Below the pieces are notes generated by a model. The model was not told the origin of the DNA. It saw only the letters and a program-made list of their open reading frames with translations, and did no database searches. Shown here piece after piece: positions 13,554 to 59,959 of a stretch of 64,000 bases of DNA. This stretch comes from Escherichia phage Ecwhy_1: sequence record MH791411.1. One strand, written 5' to 3'. Numbering within the stretch: the stretch's first letter is position 1; each line of letters starts with the position of its first letter. The translations under genes were made by a program, and so were the position numbers.

Positions 13554-13570
13554 AGTGTACCTTTATTTTG

Positions 13571-13643
<73 letters not shown>

Positions 13644-13646
13644 TGA

Positions 13647-13729
<83 letters not shown>

Positions 13730-13780
13730 AGAAGTAAGATAACCAACAAGTCTCCATACTCTTTCGCATTGAGGGGAGGC

Positions 13781-13841
<61 letters not shown>

Positions 13842-13901
13842 GCCAAGTGTCGGCATAGGTGCAGCACTACAAAGTACTTCAAGCTGTTTAGCAGTTTCTT
13901 C

Positions 13902-13983
<82 letters not shown>

Positions 13984-13985
13984 TA

Positions 13986-14111
<126 letters not shown>

Positions 14112-14130
14112 GCATACTCGAAGTACCTCT

Positions 14131-14168
<38 letters not shown>

Positions 14169-14169
14169 A

Positions 14170-14222
<53 letters not shown>

Positions 14223-14267
14223 ATAGGCACACACGGAACTGCTTTATAAGCTACTGAATCGGGAATC

Positions 14268-14798
<531 letters not shown>

Positions 14799-14807
14799 AT
14801 TTGTTTC

Positions 14808-14993
14808 CTATGAAATGAATGTAGCGTTAATTCCCATTATAAATGAAAATATACCAAACAATATCAACCCGATTGGTACAAAGATCATAGATCTATTTCC
14901 ATGTTTCGATAAAAATCGTTCAACTGTAATTAAACGTATTGATATCGGAACCATTATAATAATATACAATATTGAAAGAATTAAAAGTTGCAT
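14808..14993 (-). CDS. hypothetical small membrane protein
   Basis: Six-frame ORF, 61 aa, two hydrophobic segments. Confidence 0.4.
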   Translation of the reverse strand: MQLLILSILYIIIMVPISIRLITVERFLSKHGNRSMIFVPIGLILFGIFSFIMGINATFIS

Positions 14994-15006
14994 TTTAATT
15001 TCCTAT

Positions 15007-15826
<820 letters not shown>

Positions 15827-16189
15827 ATCACCAACTTTAATTAAAAAAAATGGATGGTGACGCTTTTAAACGCCGCTGTTAATTCAGCTTTATAACCACC
15901 CGTTTTAACTTGCCTTTCGGCTACCTTGACGTGGGGCGTACAGGCTACTAAAAGCAACTACTGTAAACATATTTCCACGCCTTACCCTTTTAAATAAAAG
16001 TCCATCCGGTTTTCCAGTTTGGTGAAGGACTGTCACCTCTAGTTTAAACCTGCTAGTCAAGTAATAATTGCCTATCGTCCAATTATCAAACCCGTCTAGG
16101 TTAACATTCACCACTTCCTAGAGTACCAGAGATCTTGTTCTGGATTGCATCGACGTAACTTACACCATATACGTCTGATTGTGGAATTC

Positions 16190-16214
16190 ATTATATCAGT
16201 ACTGAACTATTTAG

Positions 16215-16218
<4 letters not shown>
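16190..16218 (-). promoter_or_regulatory. consensus sigma-70-type promoter TTGACT-N17-TATAAT
   Basis: Exact -35 and -10 hexamers with a 17-nt spacer on the minus strand; followed by about 340 nt without a convincing ORF, then the tRNA cluster. Confidence 0.6.
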
Positions 16219-16640
<422 letters not shown>

Positions 16641-16648
16641 CTTTTTAT

Positions 16649-16809
<161 letters not shown>

Positions 16810-16813
<4 letters not shown>

Positions 16814-16970
16814 ATTCGTACCAGTAGTTCAATTAAGTACATTTCATATGCTGGATCGTTGATAAGTTTATCATACAGATGTGGCTCTGAAATGAATTCC
16901 CAATGATACTTTAGCCATTTACCGATACCCGAATATCTAAAATTAATGTCATTCATCCATTCTTCATGTG

Positions 16971-16974
<4 letters not shown>
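16810..16974 (-). CDS. MTHEEW-family small protein (54 aa), copy B
   Basis: Hand translation: MTHEEWMNDINFRYSGIGKWLKYHWEFISEPHLYDKLINDPAYEMYLIELLVRI; ATGA stop/start overlap with copy C. Confidence 0.5.
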
Positions 16975-17240
<266 letters not shown>

Positions 17241-17243
17241 TTT

Positions 17244-17359
<116 letters not shown>

Positions 17360-17899: not shown

Positions 17900-18097
17900 T
17901 TACGGTTTACTATTTTTACGTTGTTCTGATTCGGGTACAGTTTTCATTTCACCAATACATAGTTCCATGATGAGTACACCTTTGTCATTATAACGTACTA
18001 CATCTTCAATGTCAAAATGTCTCGCACTATGAACAACTTCAATACATGCATCATCGGGATATGATTCCAATAATGCTACAAGTTCTGCTTTAGTCAC
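17900..18097 (-). CDS. hypothetical protein
   Basis: Six-frame ORF, 65 aa; GTG start with GAGGA RBS; promoter upstream. Confidence 0.45.
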   Translation of the reverse strand: MTKAELVALLESYPDDACIEVVHSARHFDIEDVVRYNDKGVLIMELCIGEMKTVPESEQRKNSKP

Positions 18098-25319: not shown

Positions 25320-25837
25320 TTGATTAATATAGGAGTATTATACATACTCCATTTTCATGTGTCAAGCTTTATAATACGGAAGACTTTTCACTAAAGATTC
25401 TGACGTATTATTTTTTACCCATGTACTACCGTTGTCTTTGGATACATATCCAATACCATTAACAAACTTACGCATAATACCAGTAAAAATATTAGTATAC
25501 ACCATTACTCAGTATCCTTTGGTTTAGAATGTAAACCATACTTTTCATCATAACGATCATAGGTAGTGCCATTAGTACTAGCTTTGATGCTTTCGGTGCG
25601 ATTGATTGGTTCGATTTTGACACCACGATAACCAATCTCTTCTTTAAATTGTTCCCATGATTCACGTAGACTCATTTTAGTCCCCTTTTTGTTATTTCAT
25701 ACACTCACGTAGGTCAATCTTTTCAACTGAACCACCGAGTACTAGATAGTGAAAATTAGAATCTTTGTTTGCCATATTCAAAAGATCTGCTTTCTGTTGA
25801 AGCGTAAAGCGTGAAGTACTGTTACGTACTGGCATAG

Positions 25838-29670: not shown

Positions 29671-30126
29671 TTAATTGAACTCGATTTCTGGATAATGATT
29701 ATAGAACATCTCACGTACTGCGTCAAGCTGTTCTTTAAATTTCTCAATGTCATCAAGAGTTAGTACAGTGTTACTAACTGTACTCAACTGAAAAAGTGCC
29801 TCTTCAGTACTGTTTTCTGATAAATCAAATGTACATGATGAATCATCTGTTATAATATTATCACATATTTCAAATGTGTCAATATGAACATCATTGAGTA
29901 GATCACCACTATAATCATTATATATGAACACAAAAATGTATGATGGTTTTTTTATCTCAGTTTCTGACTCATAGGCTACCAAATCATATGTTACGTAACA
30001 TTTAAAGTCAGGTGAATCGTATTCCATAGATACAATTCCTATATCACGATATTGATTCGCTTCACTGATTAAATCCGGTATAGGTGTAATACTAAGTAAA
30101 TGGAAAAACTGTCCTGGATTTAGCAT
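29671..30126 (-). CDS. F-Q-x-S motif family protein (STEEALFQLSTV)
   Basis: Six-frame ORF, 151 aa; first of the tandem array. Confidence 0.55.
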   Translation of the reverse strand: MLNPGQFFHLLSITPIPDLISEANQYRDIGIVSMEYDSPDFKCYVTYDLVAYESETEIKKPSYIFVFIYNDYSGDLLNDVHIDTFEICDNIITDDSSCTFDLSENSTEEALFQLSTVSNTVLTLDDIEKFKEQLDAVREMFYNHYPEIEFN

Positions 30127-32236: not shown

Positions 32237-32260
32237 GAAAAATGCCCCGAAGGTCGGGGC
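32237..32260 (-). terminator. intrinsic terminator
   Basis: Minus-strand stem GCCCCGA / UCGGGGC with a 4-nt loop followed by a U-rich tract. Confidence 0.55.
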
Positions 32261-32372
32261 AGTACGAAAAAGATTTTGTACAAAAAAGGGGAATAATACA
32301 ATAAAATAATAACGCATCATTATTATGTAAGGGAGGAAAGTAACATGATAATGTTAACCATTACTGGTATAA

Positions 32373-32924: not shown

Positions 32925-32945
32925 TATTCATATCCTTATGTTGGA

Positions 32946-32968
32946 AAAGCCCCCATTACGGAGGCTTT
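32946..32968 (-). terminator. intrinsic terminator (imperfect stem)
   Basis: Hairpin AAAGCCUCC...GGGGGCUUU with flanking U-run, after the gene ending at 32980. Confidence 0.4.
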
Positions 32969-32979
32969 TGTTAATCTAA

Positions 32980-33606: not shown

Positions 33607-33938
33607 AAAACCTTCACATCAGTACGTTTATCTCTTTCTTCTTTCTTTACCTCATCGGAGCGGGTATCTTCTAATTGTAACACAACTTCTTTCAGAATGT
33701 CAACATCAATCATTGCTTCTTTGTATTGAAAGTCGTTTACGCCGAAAATATACTTCAATGCAACCCATACACGTTTGTACCATTTTAAGAAAGGATTCAA
33801 ACGCATACTCACCAGACATTGACCAAGTTTATCATCTCCATGTTCTTGTGTCAAGTCAAATTGTGAAATGTGAACACAATGTTCCGTATTATCGCCACAA
33901 CTACAACGCACTATAAATTCTTTGCTGTCTTTGCTCAT
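33603..33938 (-). CDS. hypothetical Cys/His-rich protein
   Basis: Six-frame ORF, 111 aa; CSCG...HC motif. Confidence 0.45.
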   Translation of the reverse strand: MSKDSKEFIVRCSCGDNTEHCVHISQFDLTQEHGDDKLGQCLVSMRLNPFLKWYKRVWVALKYIFGVNDFQYKEAMIDVDILKEVVLQLEDTRSDEVKKEERDKRTDVKVL

Positions 33939-34357
33939 ACTGGATAAGCCTTCATAAATTGTTTTAGAACTCCAAACTTAGAAGCACTGTAATCATACTG
34001 ATAACTTAGCTCACGTTTATCATTCATTCGATAAACCATATGATTGTTTGGATAACCTATTCTAACAGGTTTGTTAGGATTTGCAAGCAAAATTGCCCAT
34101 TCTTTTACAGGAAAAACGTTTTCAGATAACATCTTCACATCTTTACTGTAATACTTCATTGCTTGGGTACAGTGCTTGTAATCTTCAGCACTCAGTTCTT
34201 CACACACAACACTGTGTGTTTCAGTACTGGATACCCATGACTCTTCTTCATAATATAAGTCAATTACATCTTCTACGGTATAGCTATCAGGTAAATCATA
34301 ATATACCCAATTACTAAAACCAGAGCTTACACCAACTCGAATTCGATAGTACTTCAT
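33935..34357 (-). CDS. hypothetical protein
   Basis: Six-frame ORF, 140 aa. Confidence 0.5.
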   Translation of the reverse strand: MKYYRIRVGVSSGFSNWVYYDLPDSYTVEDVIDLYYEEESWVSSTETHSVVCEELSAEDYKHCTQAMKYYSKDVKMLSENVFPVKEWAILLANPNKPVRIGYPNNHMVYRMNDKRELSYQYDYSASKFGVLKQFMKAYPV

Positions 34358-34599
34358 ATTTTTTTATCATCCGATTTTACATAATAGTAACATACAATGC
34401 AGTGAATTACAAGAAGAATAATTTCTACTACATTCAGTGCCACAACATGCCCTTGCGGGACCGTAAGTGACAATAACAACATTATAGTAGGTATTACGAA
34501 TATTGTCAATGTTTTTTTCATTTTATTTCCTTGTGGGACCATAAGTGACAATAACAACATTATAGTAGGTATTACGAATAATGTCCATGTTTTTTTCAT
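34354..34599 (-). CDS. small membrane / signal-peptide protein with duplicated N-terminus
   Basis: Six-frame ORF, 81 aa; residues 1-26 and 27-52 are near-identical because of a 78-bp tandem DNA duplication; true start may be the second Met (34521). Confidence 0.45.
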   Translation of the reverse strand: MKKTWTLFVIPTIMLLLSLMVPQGNKMKKTLTIFVIPTIMLLLSLTVPQGHVVALNVVEIILLVIHCIVCYYYVKSDDKKI

Positions 34600-34606
34600 T
34601 TTATTT
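34451..34606. repeat. 2 x 78-bp near-identical tandem direct repeat
   Basis: Copies at 34451..34528 and 34529..34606 differ at a few positions; each carries an RBS-like stretch, an ATG and a hydrophobic N-terminal coding segment. Confidence 0.8.
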
Positions 34607-34832
34607 CCTTAATGTAGGCAAATGGTAAAAATACAACCTCTACCCCAGGAAATGCAGTTGCGAGTGCATCAACTATAGATTTGTTTTTATTACATTGCCA
34701 TACTTTTGTAACTTTGTGCTGGAATACCTTGCCATCTTTTACTAACCAATACATTTGCATTTTAACAGTACTGTTATCAGATGGTATTAGTAAATCTTCC
34801 ATATCATATGAATTAAAGATTCTCTCGTTCAT
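34596..34832 (-). CDS. hypothetical protein
   Basis: Six-frame ORF, 78 aa. Confidence 0.45.
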   Translation of the reverse strand: MNERIFNSYDMEDLLIPSDNSTVKMQMYWLVKDGKVFQHKVTKVWQCNKNKSIVDALATAFPGVEVVFLPFAYIKEIK

Positions 34833-35091
34833 ATAATCTCCTAGTGAAAAAAGCCAGATTCTTTCTTATATATTCGGCGACACAATCAGTAGTTTGTGTA
34901 TTTGTGAATGCAACAACTTCATTCGATACACCATTCCCATTACACAATGGACAAATCCCCATATACTTAGGTGTTGGAACTGTATCTAGTTTATATTTCC
35001 CTGAAGATATCATGTATTGTTGTGGTAATACATCCAAAGAAATAATATAATCTTCATCGAATTGCTTACAACATACCCAACATTTACTCAT
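34813..35091 (-). CDS. hypothetical zinc-finger-like protein
   Basis: Six-frame ORF, 92 aa; CWVCC ... CPLCNG cysteine clusters. Confidence 0.45.
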   Translation of the reverse strand: MSKCWVCCKQFDEDYIISLDVLPQQYMISSGKYKLDTVPTPKYMGICPLCNGNGVSNEVVAFTNTQTTDCVAEYIRKNLAFFTRRLYERENL

Positions 35092-35575
35092 TGTGGTTCT
35101 CCTTCAAAACAATTCTTATATCTTCGAATGTTTTAACAAACCAGTCATGTTCATCAGATACATCAACCACCTTCCCACCATAAACATAGTAATGATAGAA
35201 GGGTAACTTACTTTTCCTCAATCGTTCAGCAAGTTCTGGGTTTTGAAATATCTTAGCACATATTGCATCCTGGATACAAGAAATGCATTCGGGTGTCATT
35301 TCAATACGGTCGTGCATATACTTGTTCGCCGCTGCTTTTGCAGCAGCACCCGACACTTTTCTAAGATCATCATGTTTCTGGCCTGTTAAAAACCAAAAAT
35401 AAAAAGTTTCTACCGATGGGAACCAACCGTATGGTTCTAAGGTAAAACTATGTGACGAAAAGTTAGATAGATCCCTACCTAACTTAGTTTTAGCTTTACT
35501 ATAGATATTAATGTGTCTGTATCCGTCATCAGTAGGGTCAATATAGTTAAATGACTCTTCAGGAAATTCAAACAT
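35084..35575 (-). CDS. NADAR (YbiA/DUF1768)-like protein
   Basis: INIYSKAKTKLGRDLSNFSSHSF ... GWFPSVETFYFWFL resembles the NADAR core pattern (..YS...LSNF...F..G..F.S.E..Y) as recalled. Confidence 0.4.
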   Translation of the reverse strand: MFEFPEESFNYIDPTDDGYRHINIYSKAKTKLGRDLSNFSSHSFTLEPYGWFPSVETFYFWFLTGQKHDDLRKVSGAAAKAAANKYMHDRIEMTPECISCIQDAICAKIFQNPELAERLRKSKLPFYHYYVYGGKVVDVSDEHDWFVKTFEDIRIVLKENHNE

Positions 35576-37691: not shown

Positions 37692-38782
37692 AACTTGTTA
37701 TCCCTCATATAAAGGCCAATGAAAATAGATACAATCAGTAACAAAATAGAAGCACCGATGAGAACATCTTTACGTGGTTCCATTTTTACAGACAAGTACT
37801 CGAACTCTTTATTAGAGAGTCTTTCAAACTTTGTGTCAATATTATGCACTTCTTTGCTCAACAAGTCAAGAGTTAATTTTTCATTTAATGCATCCATTCG
37901 CATCTTAGCATGTAGTTCTTCGTTCTTCATGCCTTGTGCAAAGGAAGTGCTATCAAATTTAACAATCTTCCCATCATTATCAATTCCAAAGAACATAATA
38001 ACATCATTCTTCTTACCACCACGCCACGAAGCGAGTGTTGCCTCAACAAAATCTACGTTTTTATAATCATAAACCAAAACTTGGATGTTGACTTGTTTAC
38101 GTGCACCCATAGTTTTTAGTTCTTCACGCAGATACTCATCATAACCATCTACATTATAATTAGTAGTGTTGATTACATGGTGTGTTTTATAATAGTCTAC
38201 CACACTTGGGTATTCTGGTAATGTACTAAGATATTTCTCATCATACATTTCATGTAATTCACCAGGACTAAACAATGAGTTTTTATCAGCGAACAGATAG
38301 TTAATATAAGAACTTTCTGCGGCGGCATAATCCCCAATGTTAACCTGTTGCCAGCGGGGAGGGGTCATTGTACCCTGGCGGTTTACTCGCTCAATCTCAA
38401 ACTTCCCTACAGTACTTTTTACATACCAGTCAACTTCGTATGAATAATCAAATACCTTATAGGACTCACATTCACGATGGGATTTCCCCTTACTATCATA
38501 ACGAGTTCTGCATTTCTCGTGCCACGTGTAATGCTTACATGAGCTTGATTGTGTACAAAACTCCTTGTGATTATATTTGGATGTTACCTGCCCATTTAGA
38601 ATCTCTACATCGTACAATTGGCTGTAGTTGATTGCATATGAGATACCAAGCACAAGAGCAGCACCAACTATACAACAACCAATATGAATCAACAGTTCTT
38701 TAGTACTGATATGCTTATCATACATGTATTTCATAACAAATACAACGATAAGTGAAGGAATCAACAGAATAATAAAATTCAT
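37688..38782 (-). CDS. hypothetical membrane protein (N- and C-terminal transmembrane segments, Cys-rich)
   Basis: Six-frame ORF, 364 aa. Confidence 0.55.
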   Translation of the reverse strand: MNFIILLIPSLIVVFVMKYMYDKHISTKELLIHIGCCIVGAALVLGISYAINYSQLYDVEILNGQVTSKYNHKEFCTQSSSCKHYTWHEKCRTRYDSKGKSHRECESYKVFDYSYEVDWYVKSTVGKFEIERVNRQGTMTPPRWQQVNIGDYAAAESSYINYLFADKNSLFSPGELHEMYDEKYLSTLPEYPSVVDYYKTHHVINTTNYNVDGYDEYLREELKTMGARKQVNIQVLVYDYKNVDFVEATLASWRGGKKNDVIMFFGIDNDGKIVKFDSTSFAQGMKNEELHAKMRMDALNEKLTLDLLSKEVHNIDTKFERLSNKEFEYLSVKMEPRKDVLIGASILLLIVSIFIGLYMRDNKL

Positions 38783-39475: not shown

Positions 39476-39556
39476 ATTTCGTTCCTTATCTGTATATTAA
39501 AAAAGAGTGCGTTTCAATAAGAACATTATATTGAAAACGCCCTCTTGTGTCAACTA

Positions 39557-57678: not shown

Positions 57679-57747
57679 GTAATAAAAGCTCCGATATGGT
57701 TTTAATGTTTAATTCGATAGTAATTATAGCTAAGAACTAATGTTCTG

Positions 57748-57942
57748 TCAAGCACTATCATTATGTTTTTTAATTGCTTCACAGATTGCTTGAACTTGCA
57801 CTAGATAAGTTTTAGCAAACTCTGCTTGAGTACGCACGCGTGGATTTGGTGCATCTTTGATCATAAGTTCTAAGTCATAAACTACTTTATCGAAAACACC
57901 CTTGTCTTCAATAATACGATCATAAAAGGTTTTGTCAGTCAT
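57748..57942 (-). CDS. hypothetical protein
   Basis: Six-frame ORF, 64 aa. Confidence 0.45.
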   Translation of the reverse strand: MTDKTFYDRIIEDKGVFDKVVYDLELMIKDAPNPRVRTQAEFAKTYLVQVQAICEAIKKHNDSA

Positions 57943-58615: not shown

Positions 58616-59959
58616 TTAGAATCGTGCATTCTGACGCAACATAACATTGTAACGCGGTCGTGTCATAGCAGTGTATAGGATTCTGCATTTTGTATCGTTA
58701 GTTCCGATACGCTCAATAAAATCAGTATCAAACCAGATGTTATCGAATGTACTTCCTTGTGATTTGTGAACAGTTGTTGCATAAGGATAATTGATAATAT
58801 GTAATTTGTTTTTAATCACATAGTAATCTTGCCACATATATGGTTTCTTTGTCAATGGGTTGATTTCTTTTTTCTCAATGTTTTTAACTAGTTCATCGAG
58901 TTTAGCTTCCATTGCAATTCTCGTTTCTGGTCCTACACCTAAGATGTAGCTACCATTTGGTAAACGGAATTGCCAACAATCAATACCCATGAAACTTTCG
59001 GTTTTCACATCAGGACATTGGATGATTTGCTGAACCACATATGGACTGTTCTCAGTGATGCTTTCAAAGACAATCGGTTCACCTTTTGTGAATTCCTCTG
59101 GTACTTCAAACAATTGGCTACGAATGTAGATGTTAGCCAAGTTCACACGGTAGTTGGTGTATGCCAAGATTTTATTTTCATTAACAAAATCAAATATCTT
59201 CTTAGCTGAACCTTTGTTCTCCATAATGAATTCACGGTAAACTTCCAAGAAAAGATCTTCATCTTCAATTGGTGTAATAGTACTCAAACCATGTGTCTGG
59301 TGCATAATATCAAACGGGTTCTTGGATGTACCTATGCACTCACGAATTGCAGTTGCAATTGCAAGTATAGGGTTATCCAACGCTTGACGTAAAACTTCTG
59401 TTAATTCATATTGTACTGGAACATCAAAAGTAGGGGAAAGCTTAGTTTCTCCTATTGTTCCTTCTGATTCAACTGGAGGCAACTGACAGCGATCACCGAT
59501 GAATAAAACCGCTCGGCGAACACGCCACAATTGATCCTGAATGTGTTGAAACAGTTCTTCTGAAATCATACTACATTCATCGACAATTAGAATATCAACA
59601 TTAGTATTACTAACTTTACTTTGTGGGTCATGCTTCAGTACTTGACGATTCTTTTCATATACTAGTTTTAAACCTAGAAATGAGTGAATAGTACTAACCT
59701 GTGCATCTTCTTTAGTTAACCCAGCATTGTTGATTAGCATATTGCGAATAACAGAGTTTGCCTTGTGTGTTGGCGATGTTACTGCAATATTGTAATTTTT
59801 ACATAGTGCTTTAACAATCTCAGCAGTAGTGAAAGTTTTACCTGTACCCGCTGGTGCTGACAGTACAGATATAGTTTTACCTGCATAATTATAAACACGA
59901 TCTACAAAATTATCAAAAATTTCTTGTTGCTTATCCGTAAGCTTGATTTTACTCATCAT
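58616..59959 (-). CDS. dda: Dda-like SF1B DNA helicase
   Basis: Walker A SAPAGTGKTF, Walker B ILIVDECSMI, LTEVLRQ, YATTVHKSQGSTFD, ILYTAMTRPRYNV; size about 447 aa as for T4 Dda. Confidence 0.8.
   Translation of the reverse strand: MMSKIKLTDKQQEIFDNFVDRVYNYAGKTISVLSAPAGTGKTFTTAEIVKALCKNYNIAVTSPTHKANSVIRNMLINNAGLTKEDAQVSTIHSFLGLKLVYEKNRQVLKHDPQSKVSNTNVDILIVDECSMISEELFQHIQDQLWRVRRAVLFIGDRCQLPPVESEGTIGETKLSPTFDVPVQYELTEVLRQALDNPILAIATAIRECIGTSKNPFDIMHQTHGLSTITPIEDEDLFLEVYREFIMENKGSAKKIFDFVNENKILAYTNYRVNLANIYIRSQLFEVPEEFTKGEPIVFESITENSPYVVQQIIQCPDVKTESFMGIDCWQFRLPNGSYILGVGPETRIAMEAKLDELVKNIEKKEINPLTKKPYMWQDYYVIKNKLHIINYPYATTVHKSQGSTFDNIWFDTDFIERIGTNDTKCRILYTAMTRPRYNVMLRQNARF

What the first reader, a model, noticed from the sequence alone, without database searches (positions are those of the whole stretch)
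34451..34606. 78-bp tandem duplication that duplicates an RBS, start codon and signal-peptide-like segment
Two near-identical 78-bp copies generate an ORF whose first 26 residues (MKKTWTLFVIPTIMLLLSLMVPQGNK) repeat as residues 27-52. Each copy carries its own RBS-like stretch and ATG. This looks like a recent duplication at the 5' end of a small membrane-protein gene; it could create alternative starts or be an assembly artefact.
Basis: seen in the sequence. Interest (0 to 1): 0.45.

Follow-up and report, generated by a model that had tools for sequence, protein, structure and literature searches.

The report
Polymorphic 78-bp duplication carrying a promoter
A real 78-bp tandem duplication at the start of a tiny membrane-protein gene of a jumbo E. 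coli phage is present in some closely related phages and absent in others, and it copies a probable early promoter hidden inside the gene as well as the ribosome-binding site and start codon; it is an ordinary kind of event.

Summary
Two head-to-tail 78-bp copies (34529-34606 and 34451-34528, minus strand) are 74/78 identical, and each has an SD (AAGGA) and an ATG. It is not an assembly artefact: four independently sequenced Asteriusvirus phages (BF17, EC.P1, fEgEco12, WPEC5) have the same duplication, while six close relatives and all distant ones have one copy, a 55-aa gene. AAGG flanks the unit in the single-copy allele, so this is a microhomology-mediated duplication. Copy 1 matches one natural single-copy allele (TGG..CCA) apart from two window-specific substitutions. 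Copy 2 matches another (TTG..CCG) exactly. The window has 21 such sites, all on the coding strand (1.8 expected), and this one is conserved genus-wide at synonymous positions. The duplication therefore gives tandem promoters, and the upstream one now precedes an intact SD, ATG and 55-aa ORF. The in-frame 81-aa product is unique to this window; the other four two-copy genomes lack one A, which cuts the first ORF to 8 or 4 codons. The protein's function is unknown (predicted two-helix membrane hairpin). It is a new instance of a known kind of event, of modest interest.

The parts
34529..34606 (-). Copy 1 of the 78-bp unit (upstream copy in gene orientation). It is the W allele type (TGG..CCA) with two window-specific substitutions (34581, 34541).
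34451..34528 (-). Copy 2 of the 78-bp unit. It is identical to the natural single-copy L allele (TTG..CCG).
34607..34610 (-). AAGG microhomology upstream of copy 1. The same AAGG ends copy 1 (34529-34532) and copy 2 (34451-34454). In single-copy alleles AAGG flanks the unit on both sides.
   Evidence: read from the sequence; TRF extends the array to 34610
34597..34599 (-). ATG1, overlapping the stop codon of the upstream gene (ATGA), with SD AAGGA at 34606-34610. The A7 run at 34590-34596 is A6 in the four other two-copy phages.
34519..34521 (-). ATG2, start of the conserved 55-aa ORF (34354..34521). Its SD AAGGA at 34528-34532 is regenerated across the duplication junction.
34559..34587 (-). 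Promoter-like site P1 in copy 1: TGGACA-17-TATAAT (11/12). Inferred +1 is A at about 34552, 31 nt upstream of ATG2.
34481..34509 (-). Promoter-like site P2 in copy 2: TTGACA-17-TATAAT (12/12). Inferred +1 is A at about 34474, 117 nt upstream of the next gene's ATG (34357).
34354..34599 (-). 81-aa in-frame ORF with three hydrophobic helices, specific to this window. Its C-terminal 55 aa is the conserved small protein.
34596..34832 (-). Upstream 78-aa gene (phrog_13902, unknown function). Its stop codon overlaps ATG1.
33935..34357 (-). Downstream 140-aa gene (phrog_15599), the first gene served by the embedded promoter(s).
32945..32969 (-). Terminator-like G+C-rich hairpin followed by UUUU. It is the probable end of the roughly 1.5-kb unit that starts at the embedded promoter. 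A terminator is annotated at the equivalent place in phage G17.

Best explanation
This is a genuine, heritable 78-bp tandem duplication in the early-gene region of an Asteriusvirus (Rak2-like) jumbo coliphage. It was made by unequal exchange or slippage at a 4-nt AAGG microhomology, and it is polymorphic in the natural population. The unit contains the whole translation-initiation region (SD and ATG), the codons of the first membrane helix of a conserved 55-aa two-helix membrane protein, and a complete host σ70-type promoter embedded in codons 5-14 (A-rich upstream stretch, -35, 17-bp spacer, -10, +1). In single-copy genomes that promoter starts transcription inside the small ORF, so it can only serve the four downstream genes. 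After the duplication there are two tandem promoters 78 bp apart. The upstream one (P1) now lies 31 nt ahead of an intact SD, ATG2 and 55-aa ORF, so the small gene gains a promoter of its own (inferred). The protein-level effect is secondary. In this window ATG1 is in frame and would add a third helix (81 aa). In the other four two-copy genomes a 1-nt deletion has abolished that, and the 55-aa product from ATG2 is what is conserved. Shown here: the duplication, its polymorphism, the microhomology, the allele identity of the copies, the enrichment, strand bias and synonymous-site conservation of the promoter motif, and the frameshift. Inferred: promoter activity, transcript starts, any change in expression, and any fitness effect.
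For: Repeat. Jumbo-phage context (Asteriusvirus, 99.2-99.8% identity to BF17, fEgEco12, EC.P1 and WPEC5, none identical). Two copies in BF17, fEgEco12, EC.P1 and WPEC5; one copy in WPEC3, vB_Ec-M-J, Turkey3, CMSTMSU, TH47, ph0011 and in 121Q, A4, UE-S1, JNE01, Turkey5. AAGG at both ends of the unit in the single-copy allele. Copy 2 equals a natural single-copy allele (ENA k141 contig and two Logan contigs), and BF17's copy 1 equals the WPEC3-type allele apart from the missing A. All two-copy genomes share the copy-2 SNPs. Promoter: 12/12 and 11/12 consensus matches; 21 sites at up to 1 mismatch, all on the coding strand, against 1.79 expected and none of 100 shuffles reaching 21. TATAAT is invariant in 9 homologues down to 52% protein identity; codon 12 changes amino acid (T/I/A/V/L) but keeps its third base T; Ile13 is always ATA although ATA is 15.5% of Ile codons. 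Only 6 of 46 degenerate codons have an invariant third base, and 5 of the 6 lie in codons 5-17 (Fisher p=0.003; hexamer codons p=0.005). An A-rich stretch upstream of -35 is shared with other sites. Literature: these phages encode a sigma factor, the genome papers read list no phage RNA polymerase, and RpoD-like promoters are predicted to cluster in the early region of short genes (PMC5259590, PMC7247149, PMC13070987). Frameshift and ORF consequences. Two-helix hairpin model with pLDDT 83.
Against: No transcription start site has been mapped in any Asteriusvirus that I could find, so promoter activity rests on motif statistics and conservation. I13-M14 are invariant amino acids, which explains part of the ATAATG conservation. 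The duplication could be selectively neutral: only five genomes carry it, and their flanks are mosaic, so no test of selection is possible. The window's A7 could be a homopolymer sequencing error.
Confidence: 0.72

Rival explanations
1. Neutral structural polymorphism. The duplication is real but has no functional consequence. The σ70-like motif is either inactive or already saturating, and the extra copy simply hitch-hikes until it is lost by recombination between the repeats.
For: Single-copy and two-copy genomes co-circulate. WPEC3 and WPEC5 come from the same wastewater and the same host. Copy 1's coding capacity has decayed by a frameshift in 4 of 5 genomes. No test of selection is possible.
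Against: The motif class is strongly enriched and strand-specific, and this site is conserved at synonymous positions, so an inactive motif is unlikely. Both copies keep intact -35 and -10 hexamers in all five genomes. No collapsed TGG..CCG chimera is seen among nine single-copy genomes.
Confidence: 0.22
2. Protein-level innovation. The functional outcome is the 81-aa in-frame protein with an extra N-terminal transmembrane helix, or a pair of long and short products from two in-frame starts, as in dual-start holin/antiholin genes.
For: In this window ATG1 has the native SD and ATGA coupling to the upstream gene and is in frame with ATG2. Three helices are predicted. Copy 1 of the window carries 2 substitutions plus the A7 state against BF17, more than the flank rate predicts (P about 0.013 and 0.0007), and both amino-acid changes are conservative.
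Against: The exact 81-aa product is not on record anywhere. The four other two-copy genomes are frameshifted to an 8- or 4-codon ORF. Lysines on both sides of the extra helix (MKK... and ...NKMKK) conflict with the positive-inside rule for a three-helix topology (inference). The model confidence is low (pLDDT 68). The gene sits in an early region with no lysis genes and has no holin PHROG or Pfam match.
Confidence: 0.05
3. Assembly or sequencing artefact. A single copy was spuriously doubled.
For: Short tandem repeats are sometimes mis-assembled, and three short-read assemblies of close relatives show one copy.
Against: The same junction occurs in four other genomes sequenced by different laboratories in Poland, China, Finland and Thailand. 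The copies differ at 4 positions. The single-copy contigs carry a distinct allele and differ from every two-copy genome in their flanks, so they are other strains.
Confidence: 0.01

Closest known systems
Microhomology-mediated tandem duplications and deletions in phage and bacterial genomes (slipped-strand or illegitimate recombination between short direct repeats; the classical T4 rII work, from my own knowledge)
   Same: The copies are head to tail with no spacer. A 4-nt direct repeat (AAGG) sits at both ends of the unit in the unduplicated allele. The duplicated and unduplicated states coexist in the population.
   Different: The two copies correspond to two different natural alleles. This suggests an exchange between two co-infecting genomes rather than slippage within one genome, but the order of events is not resolved.
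Promoter capture by tandem duplication (for example the rnk-citT duplication behind Cit+ in the E. coli long-term evolution experiment; from my own knowledge)
   Same: A tandem duplication places a promoter upstream of an intact copy of a coding sequence that it did not previously drive.
   Different: The unit is 78 bp rather than kilobases. The promoter lies inside the very gene it comes to drive. No expression data exist here, so the effect is inferred.
RpoD (σ70)-type early promoters of T4-like and Rak2-like phages (predicted for phage CBB, PMC5259590)
   Same: It has TTGACA-17-TATAAT with an A-rich upstream stretch, lies on the coding strand, and belongs to a cluster of such sites in a region of short genes of unknown function.
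   Different: It lies within the first 14 codons of an ORF instead of an intergenic region. It has not been verified experimentally.
Dual-start small membrane proteins (λ S105/S107 and phage 21 S68/S71 holin/antiholin pairs; from my own knowledge)
   Same: It is a small phage membrane protein with two in-frame starts that would give a long and a short form.
   Different: The starts are 26 codons apart and the long form adds a whole helix. The arrangement exists in only one genome. The gene is in an early region, is not next to lysis genes, and shows no homology to holins.

Membership tests
Microhomology-mediated tandem duplication | Head-to-tail copies with no intervening sequence | tested here: met
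   Period 78, spacing 78, no indels
Microhomology-mediated tandem duplication | A short direct repeat flanks the unit in the unduplicated allele | tested here: met
   ATTAAGG|AAATAAAATG ... CACAAGG|GCATG in WPEC3 and other single-copy genomes
Microhomology-mediated tandem duplication | The unduplicated state exists in relatives or outgroups, so the duplication is derived | tested here: met
   One copy in 6 close and 5 distant Asteriusvirus genomes and in 3 metagenomic or read-archive assemblies
σ70 (RpoD)-type promoter | -35 TTGACA and -10 TATAAT hexamers with a 17±1 bp spacer, oriented with the genes | tested here: met
   12/12 in copy 2 and 11/12 in copy 1, both on the minus (coding) strand
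σ70 (RpoD)-type promoter | The motif class is present beyond chance and is strand-specific in this genome | tested here: met
   21 sites, all on the minus strand, against 1.79 expected; none of 100 shuffles reached 21
σ70 (RpoD)-type promoter | Nucleotide-level conservation beyond coding constraint | tested here: met
   Invariant third bases cluster in codons 5-17 (p=0.003). Codon 12 varies in amino acid but keeps T. Ile13 uses the rare ATA codon in all 9 homologues.
σ70 (RpoD)-type promoter | A mapped transcription start or in vitro activity with Eσ70 | not testable with these tools
   No transcription start data for Asteriusvirus were found in the literature searches
Cleaved Sec signal peptide or lipoprotein signal | n-region and h-region followed by an AXA-type cleavage site or a lipobox cysteine | tested here: not met
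   The MKK plus hydrophobic stretch is present, but there is no lipobox Cys, and the segment ends in VPQG with Pro at -3. It is modelled as helix 1 of a helical hairpin directly joined to helix 2. No dedicated signal-peptide predictor was available.
RseC/MucC (PF04246) | Score at or above the Pfam gathering threshold (24.4 bits) | tested here: not met
   16.9 bits for the 55-aa protein and 20.0 bits for the 81-aa protein. The match covers only the two hydrophobic helices.
Holin (class II or pinholin) with dual-start motif | Homology to a holin family, or a position in a lysis cassette next to an endolysin or spanin | tested here: not met
   No PHROG, Pfam or NCBIfam holin match. The neighbours are short early-region genes of unknown function.
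Assembly artefact | Absent from independent assemblies of the same lineage; copies identical | tested here: not met
   Present in 4 other independent genomes. The copies differ at 4 of 78 positions.

The most novel reading that the evidence does not exclude
The duplication is an adaptive regulatory rewiring. Unequal exchange between two co-infecting phages with different alleles fused them in tandem, which doubled an embedded early promoter and gave a conserved small membrane protein (HCxxC motif, unknown function) its own promoter. The later 1-nt deletion in copy 1 removed a harmful three-helix fusion. It also 'locks' the duplication, because most repeat-collapse products would then be frameshifted.
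Probability: 0.2. Interest if true: 0.45.

Novelty: new member of a known kind. Interest (0 to 1): 0.27.

Why it matters
For annotation, the five two-copy genomes carry three different published gene calls for the same locus (55, 68 and 77 aa) besides this window's 81-aa ORF. The conserved product is the 55-aa protein from the second ATG, and the 81-aa ORF should not be propagated as a family member. For biology, this is a compact natural example of a promoter embedded in a coding sequence being copied together with a start site. One-copy and two-copy isolates, and W and L promoter alleles, already exist in collections, so the effect on early transcription of a poorly studied jumbo-phage group could be tested directly. 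The window-wide set of 21 coding-strand σ70 consensus sites is a useful map of probable early promoters for this genus.

Tried and rejected
Assembly artefact: rejected on four independent genomes and the divergence between copies. A repeated mobile or regulatory element elsewhere in the window: the unit occurs nowhere else. A structured RNA or known RNA family: no Rfam match at E<=1, fold z-score -0.29, no inverted repeats. A protein family for the 55-aa product: nothing in PHROGs; only sub-threshold hydrophobic matches in Pfam (RseC_MucC) and NCBIfam. The family is confined to Asteriusvirus (36 phage records, 7 clusters among 5.8 billion proteins). More two-copy genomes: the junction 28-mer was not found in IMG/VR, JGI metagenomes or GTDB genomes, and the region is absent from complete E. 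coli genomes. A clade test for a single origin: the flanking haplotypes are mosaic, so no clean tree exists. Single origin rests only on the shared junction and the copy-2 SNPs. My first hand translation of the A6 frame (a 24-codon ORF ending at ATG2) was wrong. The computed result is 8 codons, or 4 in fEgEco12. Experimental promoter data for the genus: none found. Fold search was not attempted, because a 55-aa helical hairpin is not informative.

Full report
**Observation.** Tandem Repeats Finder reports one array at 34451..34610, with period 78, 2.1 copies, 95% matches and no indels. The repeat finder gives the two copies as 34451-34528 and 34529-34606. The unit occurs nowhere else in the window. 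All genes here are on the minus strand. Read on that strand, each copy begins AAATAAAATGAAAAAAACA and is preceded by AAGG, so each has AAGGA, 6 nt and then ATG.

**Context.** The window belongs to an Asteriusvirus (Rak2-like) jumbo coliphage. It is 99.2-99.8% identical to phages BF17, fEgEco12, EC.P1 and WPEC5 and identical to none of them. The locus lies in a run of short, tightly packed or overlapping genes of unknown function.

**Copy number is polymorphic, so this is not an artefact.**
- An alignment of the locus in ten close relatives shows two copies in BF17 (Poland), EC.P1 (China), fEgEco12 (Finland) and WPEC5 (Thailand).
- It shows one copy in WPEC3, vB_Ec-M-J, Turkey3, CMSTMSU, TH47 and ph0011.
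- The distant members 121Q, A4, UE-S1, JNE01 and Turkey5 also have one copy.
- The single-copy gene encodes 55 aa, and its ATG overlaps the stop codon of the upstream gene (ATGA).
- The duplication is therefore derived and real.
- In the single-copy allele the unit is flanked by AAGG on both sides (ATTAAGG|AAATAAAATG ... CACAAGG|GCATG). This is the signature of microhomology-mediated duplication. It also explains why the junction regenerates a full SD in front of the second ATG.

**The two copies are two natural alleles.**
- All five two-copy genomes share two copy-2 differences from the WPEC3-type allele: TGG to TTG, and CCA to CCG.
- Looking up the exact copy-2 product found single-copy genomes whose unit is identical to copy 2. 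These are an ENA MEGAHIT k141 contig and two Logan contigs.
- The sequence shared between the upstream/copy-1 junction and the copy-1/copy-2 junction is only 20-24 nt, shorter than the assemblers' k. These contigs therefore cannot be collapsed two-copy genomes. Their flanks also differ from every two-copy genome.
- Three states therefore exist: single W (TGG..CCA), single L (TTG..CCG), and W-L in tandem.
- The simplest history is one unequal exchange at AAGG between a W genome and an L genome during co-infection.
- The alternative is duplication, then divergence, then precise loss of copy 1. That needs one more rearrangement and predicts TGG..CCG chimeras, and none is seen among nine single-copy genomes.
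- The flanking haplotypes are mosaic, so the order of events is not proven.

**Coding consequences.**
- The four other two-copy genomes have A6 instead of A7 after ATG1.
- ATG1 then gives only MKKHGQYS* (MKKH* in fEgEco12), while ATG2 gives the 55-aa protein in all five.
- Only this window is in frame (81 aa), and that exact product is not on record in the large assembly collection.
- Published annotations of the other four genomes disagree: 55, 68 and 77 aa.
- The window's copy 1 also has two unique substitutions, more than the flank divergence from BF17 predicts (P about 0.013).
- The 55-aa protein is conserved across the genus, down to 52% identity. P11, I13, M14, L17, P22, L29, E33, C41, C44 and Y47 are invariant, H40 is nearly invariant, and H40 with the two cysteines forms an HCxxC motif.
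- It is modelled as helix 2-20, a turn at P22-Q23, and helix 23-54, with pLDDT 83.
- It matches no PHROG, and it has only sub-threshold hydrophobic matches in Pfam and NCBIfam.
- Its function is unknown. A membrane-acting early protein is a guess from context only.

- The consensus scan found TTGACA-17-TATAAT (12/12) at 34509..34481(-) in copy 2 and TGGACA-17-TATAAT (11/12) at 34587..34559(-) in copy 1.
- Window-wide, TTGACA-N17-TATAAT with at most one mismatch occurs 21 times. All 21 are on the coding strand, against 1.79 expected on both strands, and no shuffle reached 21. The class is therefore real.
- Published work on related phages fits this. They encode a sigma factor, the genome papers read list no phage RNA polymerase, and RpoD-like promoters are predicted to cluster in the early region of short genes (PMC5259590, PMC7247149, PMC13070987).
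- The site inside the small gene is conserved in all nine homologues compared. TATAAT is invariant, and the -35 is TGGACA, TTGACA, TGGAAA or TGGATT.
- Codon 12 changes amino acid (T, I, A, V, L) yet always ends in T. Ile13 is always ATA, although ATA is 15.5% of Ile codons in the window.
- Only 6 of 46 degenerate codons have an invariant third base, and 5 of the 6 lie in codons 5-17 (Fisher p=0.003; hexamer codons alone p=0.005).
- One of the five is the A at the third base of codon 16, which lies 7 nt after the -10 and is a plausible +1.
- The lysine codons and SD upstream form an A-rich stretch like that seen upstream of the other sites.
- No transcription start mapping for this genus was found, so activity is inferred.

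**Mechanistic reading.**
- In one-copy genomes the embedded promoter starts inside the small ORF. It can therefore serve only the downstream genes of 140, 111, 64 and 142 aa, up to a terminator-like hairpin at about 32945-32969.
- The nearest other near-consensus sites are at 37811-37839 and 29698-29726.
- After the duplication, P1 (+1 at about 34552) precedes SD2 and ATG2 by 31 nt, so the full 55-aa ORF gains a dedicated promoter. P2, with its perfect consensus, continues to serve the downstream genes.
- Whether this is adaptive or neutral cannot be decided from sequence.
- A logical corollary is that in A6 genomes most repeat-collapse products would carry the frameshift. That would stabilise the duplication if the gene matters.

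**Other checks.** There is no Rfam match, no unusual RNA structure (z=-0.29) and no inverted repeats. The junction 28-mer was not found in IMG/VR, JGI metagenomes or GTDB genomes, and the region is absent from complete E. coli genomes.

**Verdict.** The artefact suggestion is wrong. The alternative-start idea applies only to this one genome. The main content of the duplicated unit is a conserved early promoter plus a start site. This is a new instance of a well-known kind of event, a microhomology-mediated tandem duplication with promoter duplication. It is useful for annotation and testable, but not surprising to a specialist.

Noticed in passing
window, whole; for example 57723-57751, 39525-39553, 25337-25365, 17987-18015 (all minus strand): There are 21 near-perfect σ70 consensus sites (TTGACA-N17-TATAAT, at most 1 mismatch), all on the coding strand, against about 1.8 expected. 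This is a probable map of early promoters for this jumbo phage. Several lie inside ORFs, including the 5' ends of ORFs 57748..57942 and 58616..59959.
   Followed up: partly
window 16649-17135 (minus strand): Three tandem paralogous 54-aa genes all start MTHEEWM... (TRF period 161, 2.1 copies, 82%). This is a whole-gene tandem amplification. It was not compared with relatives.
   Followed up: no
window 13570-13643 and 13650-13723 (minus strand): Two adjacent tRNA-Thr(TGT) genes about 79% identical (TRF period 80) sit within a cluster of six phage tRNA genes (13570-17333).
   Followed up: no
window 34354-34521 (minus strand), residues 33-47 of the 55-aa protein: The second membrane helix contains invariant E33, C41, C44 and Y47 and nearly invariant H40, giving an HCxxC motif across the genus. 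Such a motif inside a membrane helix is unusual and hints at metal binding or redox chemistry.
   Followed up: partly
L001, L003, L006, L007 (BF17, fEgEco12, EC.P1, WPEC5), locus coordinates about 1955-2200: The same locus is annotated as 55 aa (BF17, WPEC5), 68 aa (EC.P1) and 77 aa with a TTG start (fEgEco12). These gene calls are inconsistent because of the duplication and the frameshift.
   Followed up: yes
window 35084-35575 (minus strand): The 163-aa protein is annotated 'NADAR domain-containing' in phages Turkey3 and Turkey5. It matches phrog_652 but had no Pfam match at E<=0.01 here. The neighbouring 117-aa protein is annotated 'WWE domain-containing' in ph0011. These may be ADP-ribose-related genes, which could point to anti-defence roles. 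Neither annotation was verified.
   Followed up: partly
window 32243-32261 and 32945-32969 (minus strand): There are two terminator-like hairpins: UGCCCCGACCUUCGGGGCA followed by U-rich sequence, and AAAAGCCUCC...GGGGGCUUUU. They probably delimit early transcription units. The second corresponds to a terminator annotated in phage G17.
   Followed up: partly
L002 and L007 (WPEC3 and WPEC5): A one-copy phage and a two-copy phage were isolated from the same hospital wastewater on the same host strain (EC3.18, Thailand). The alleles therefore co-circulate and have the opportunity to recombine.
   Followed up: no
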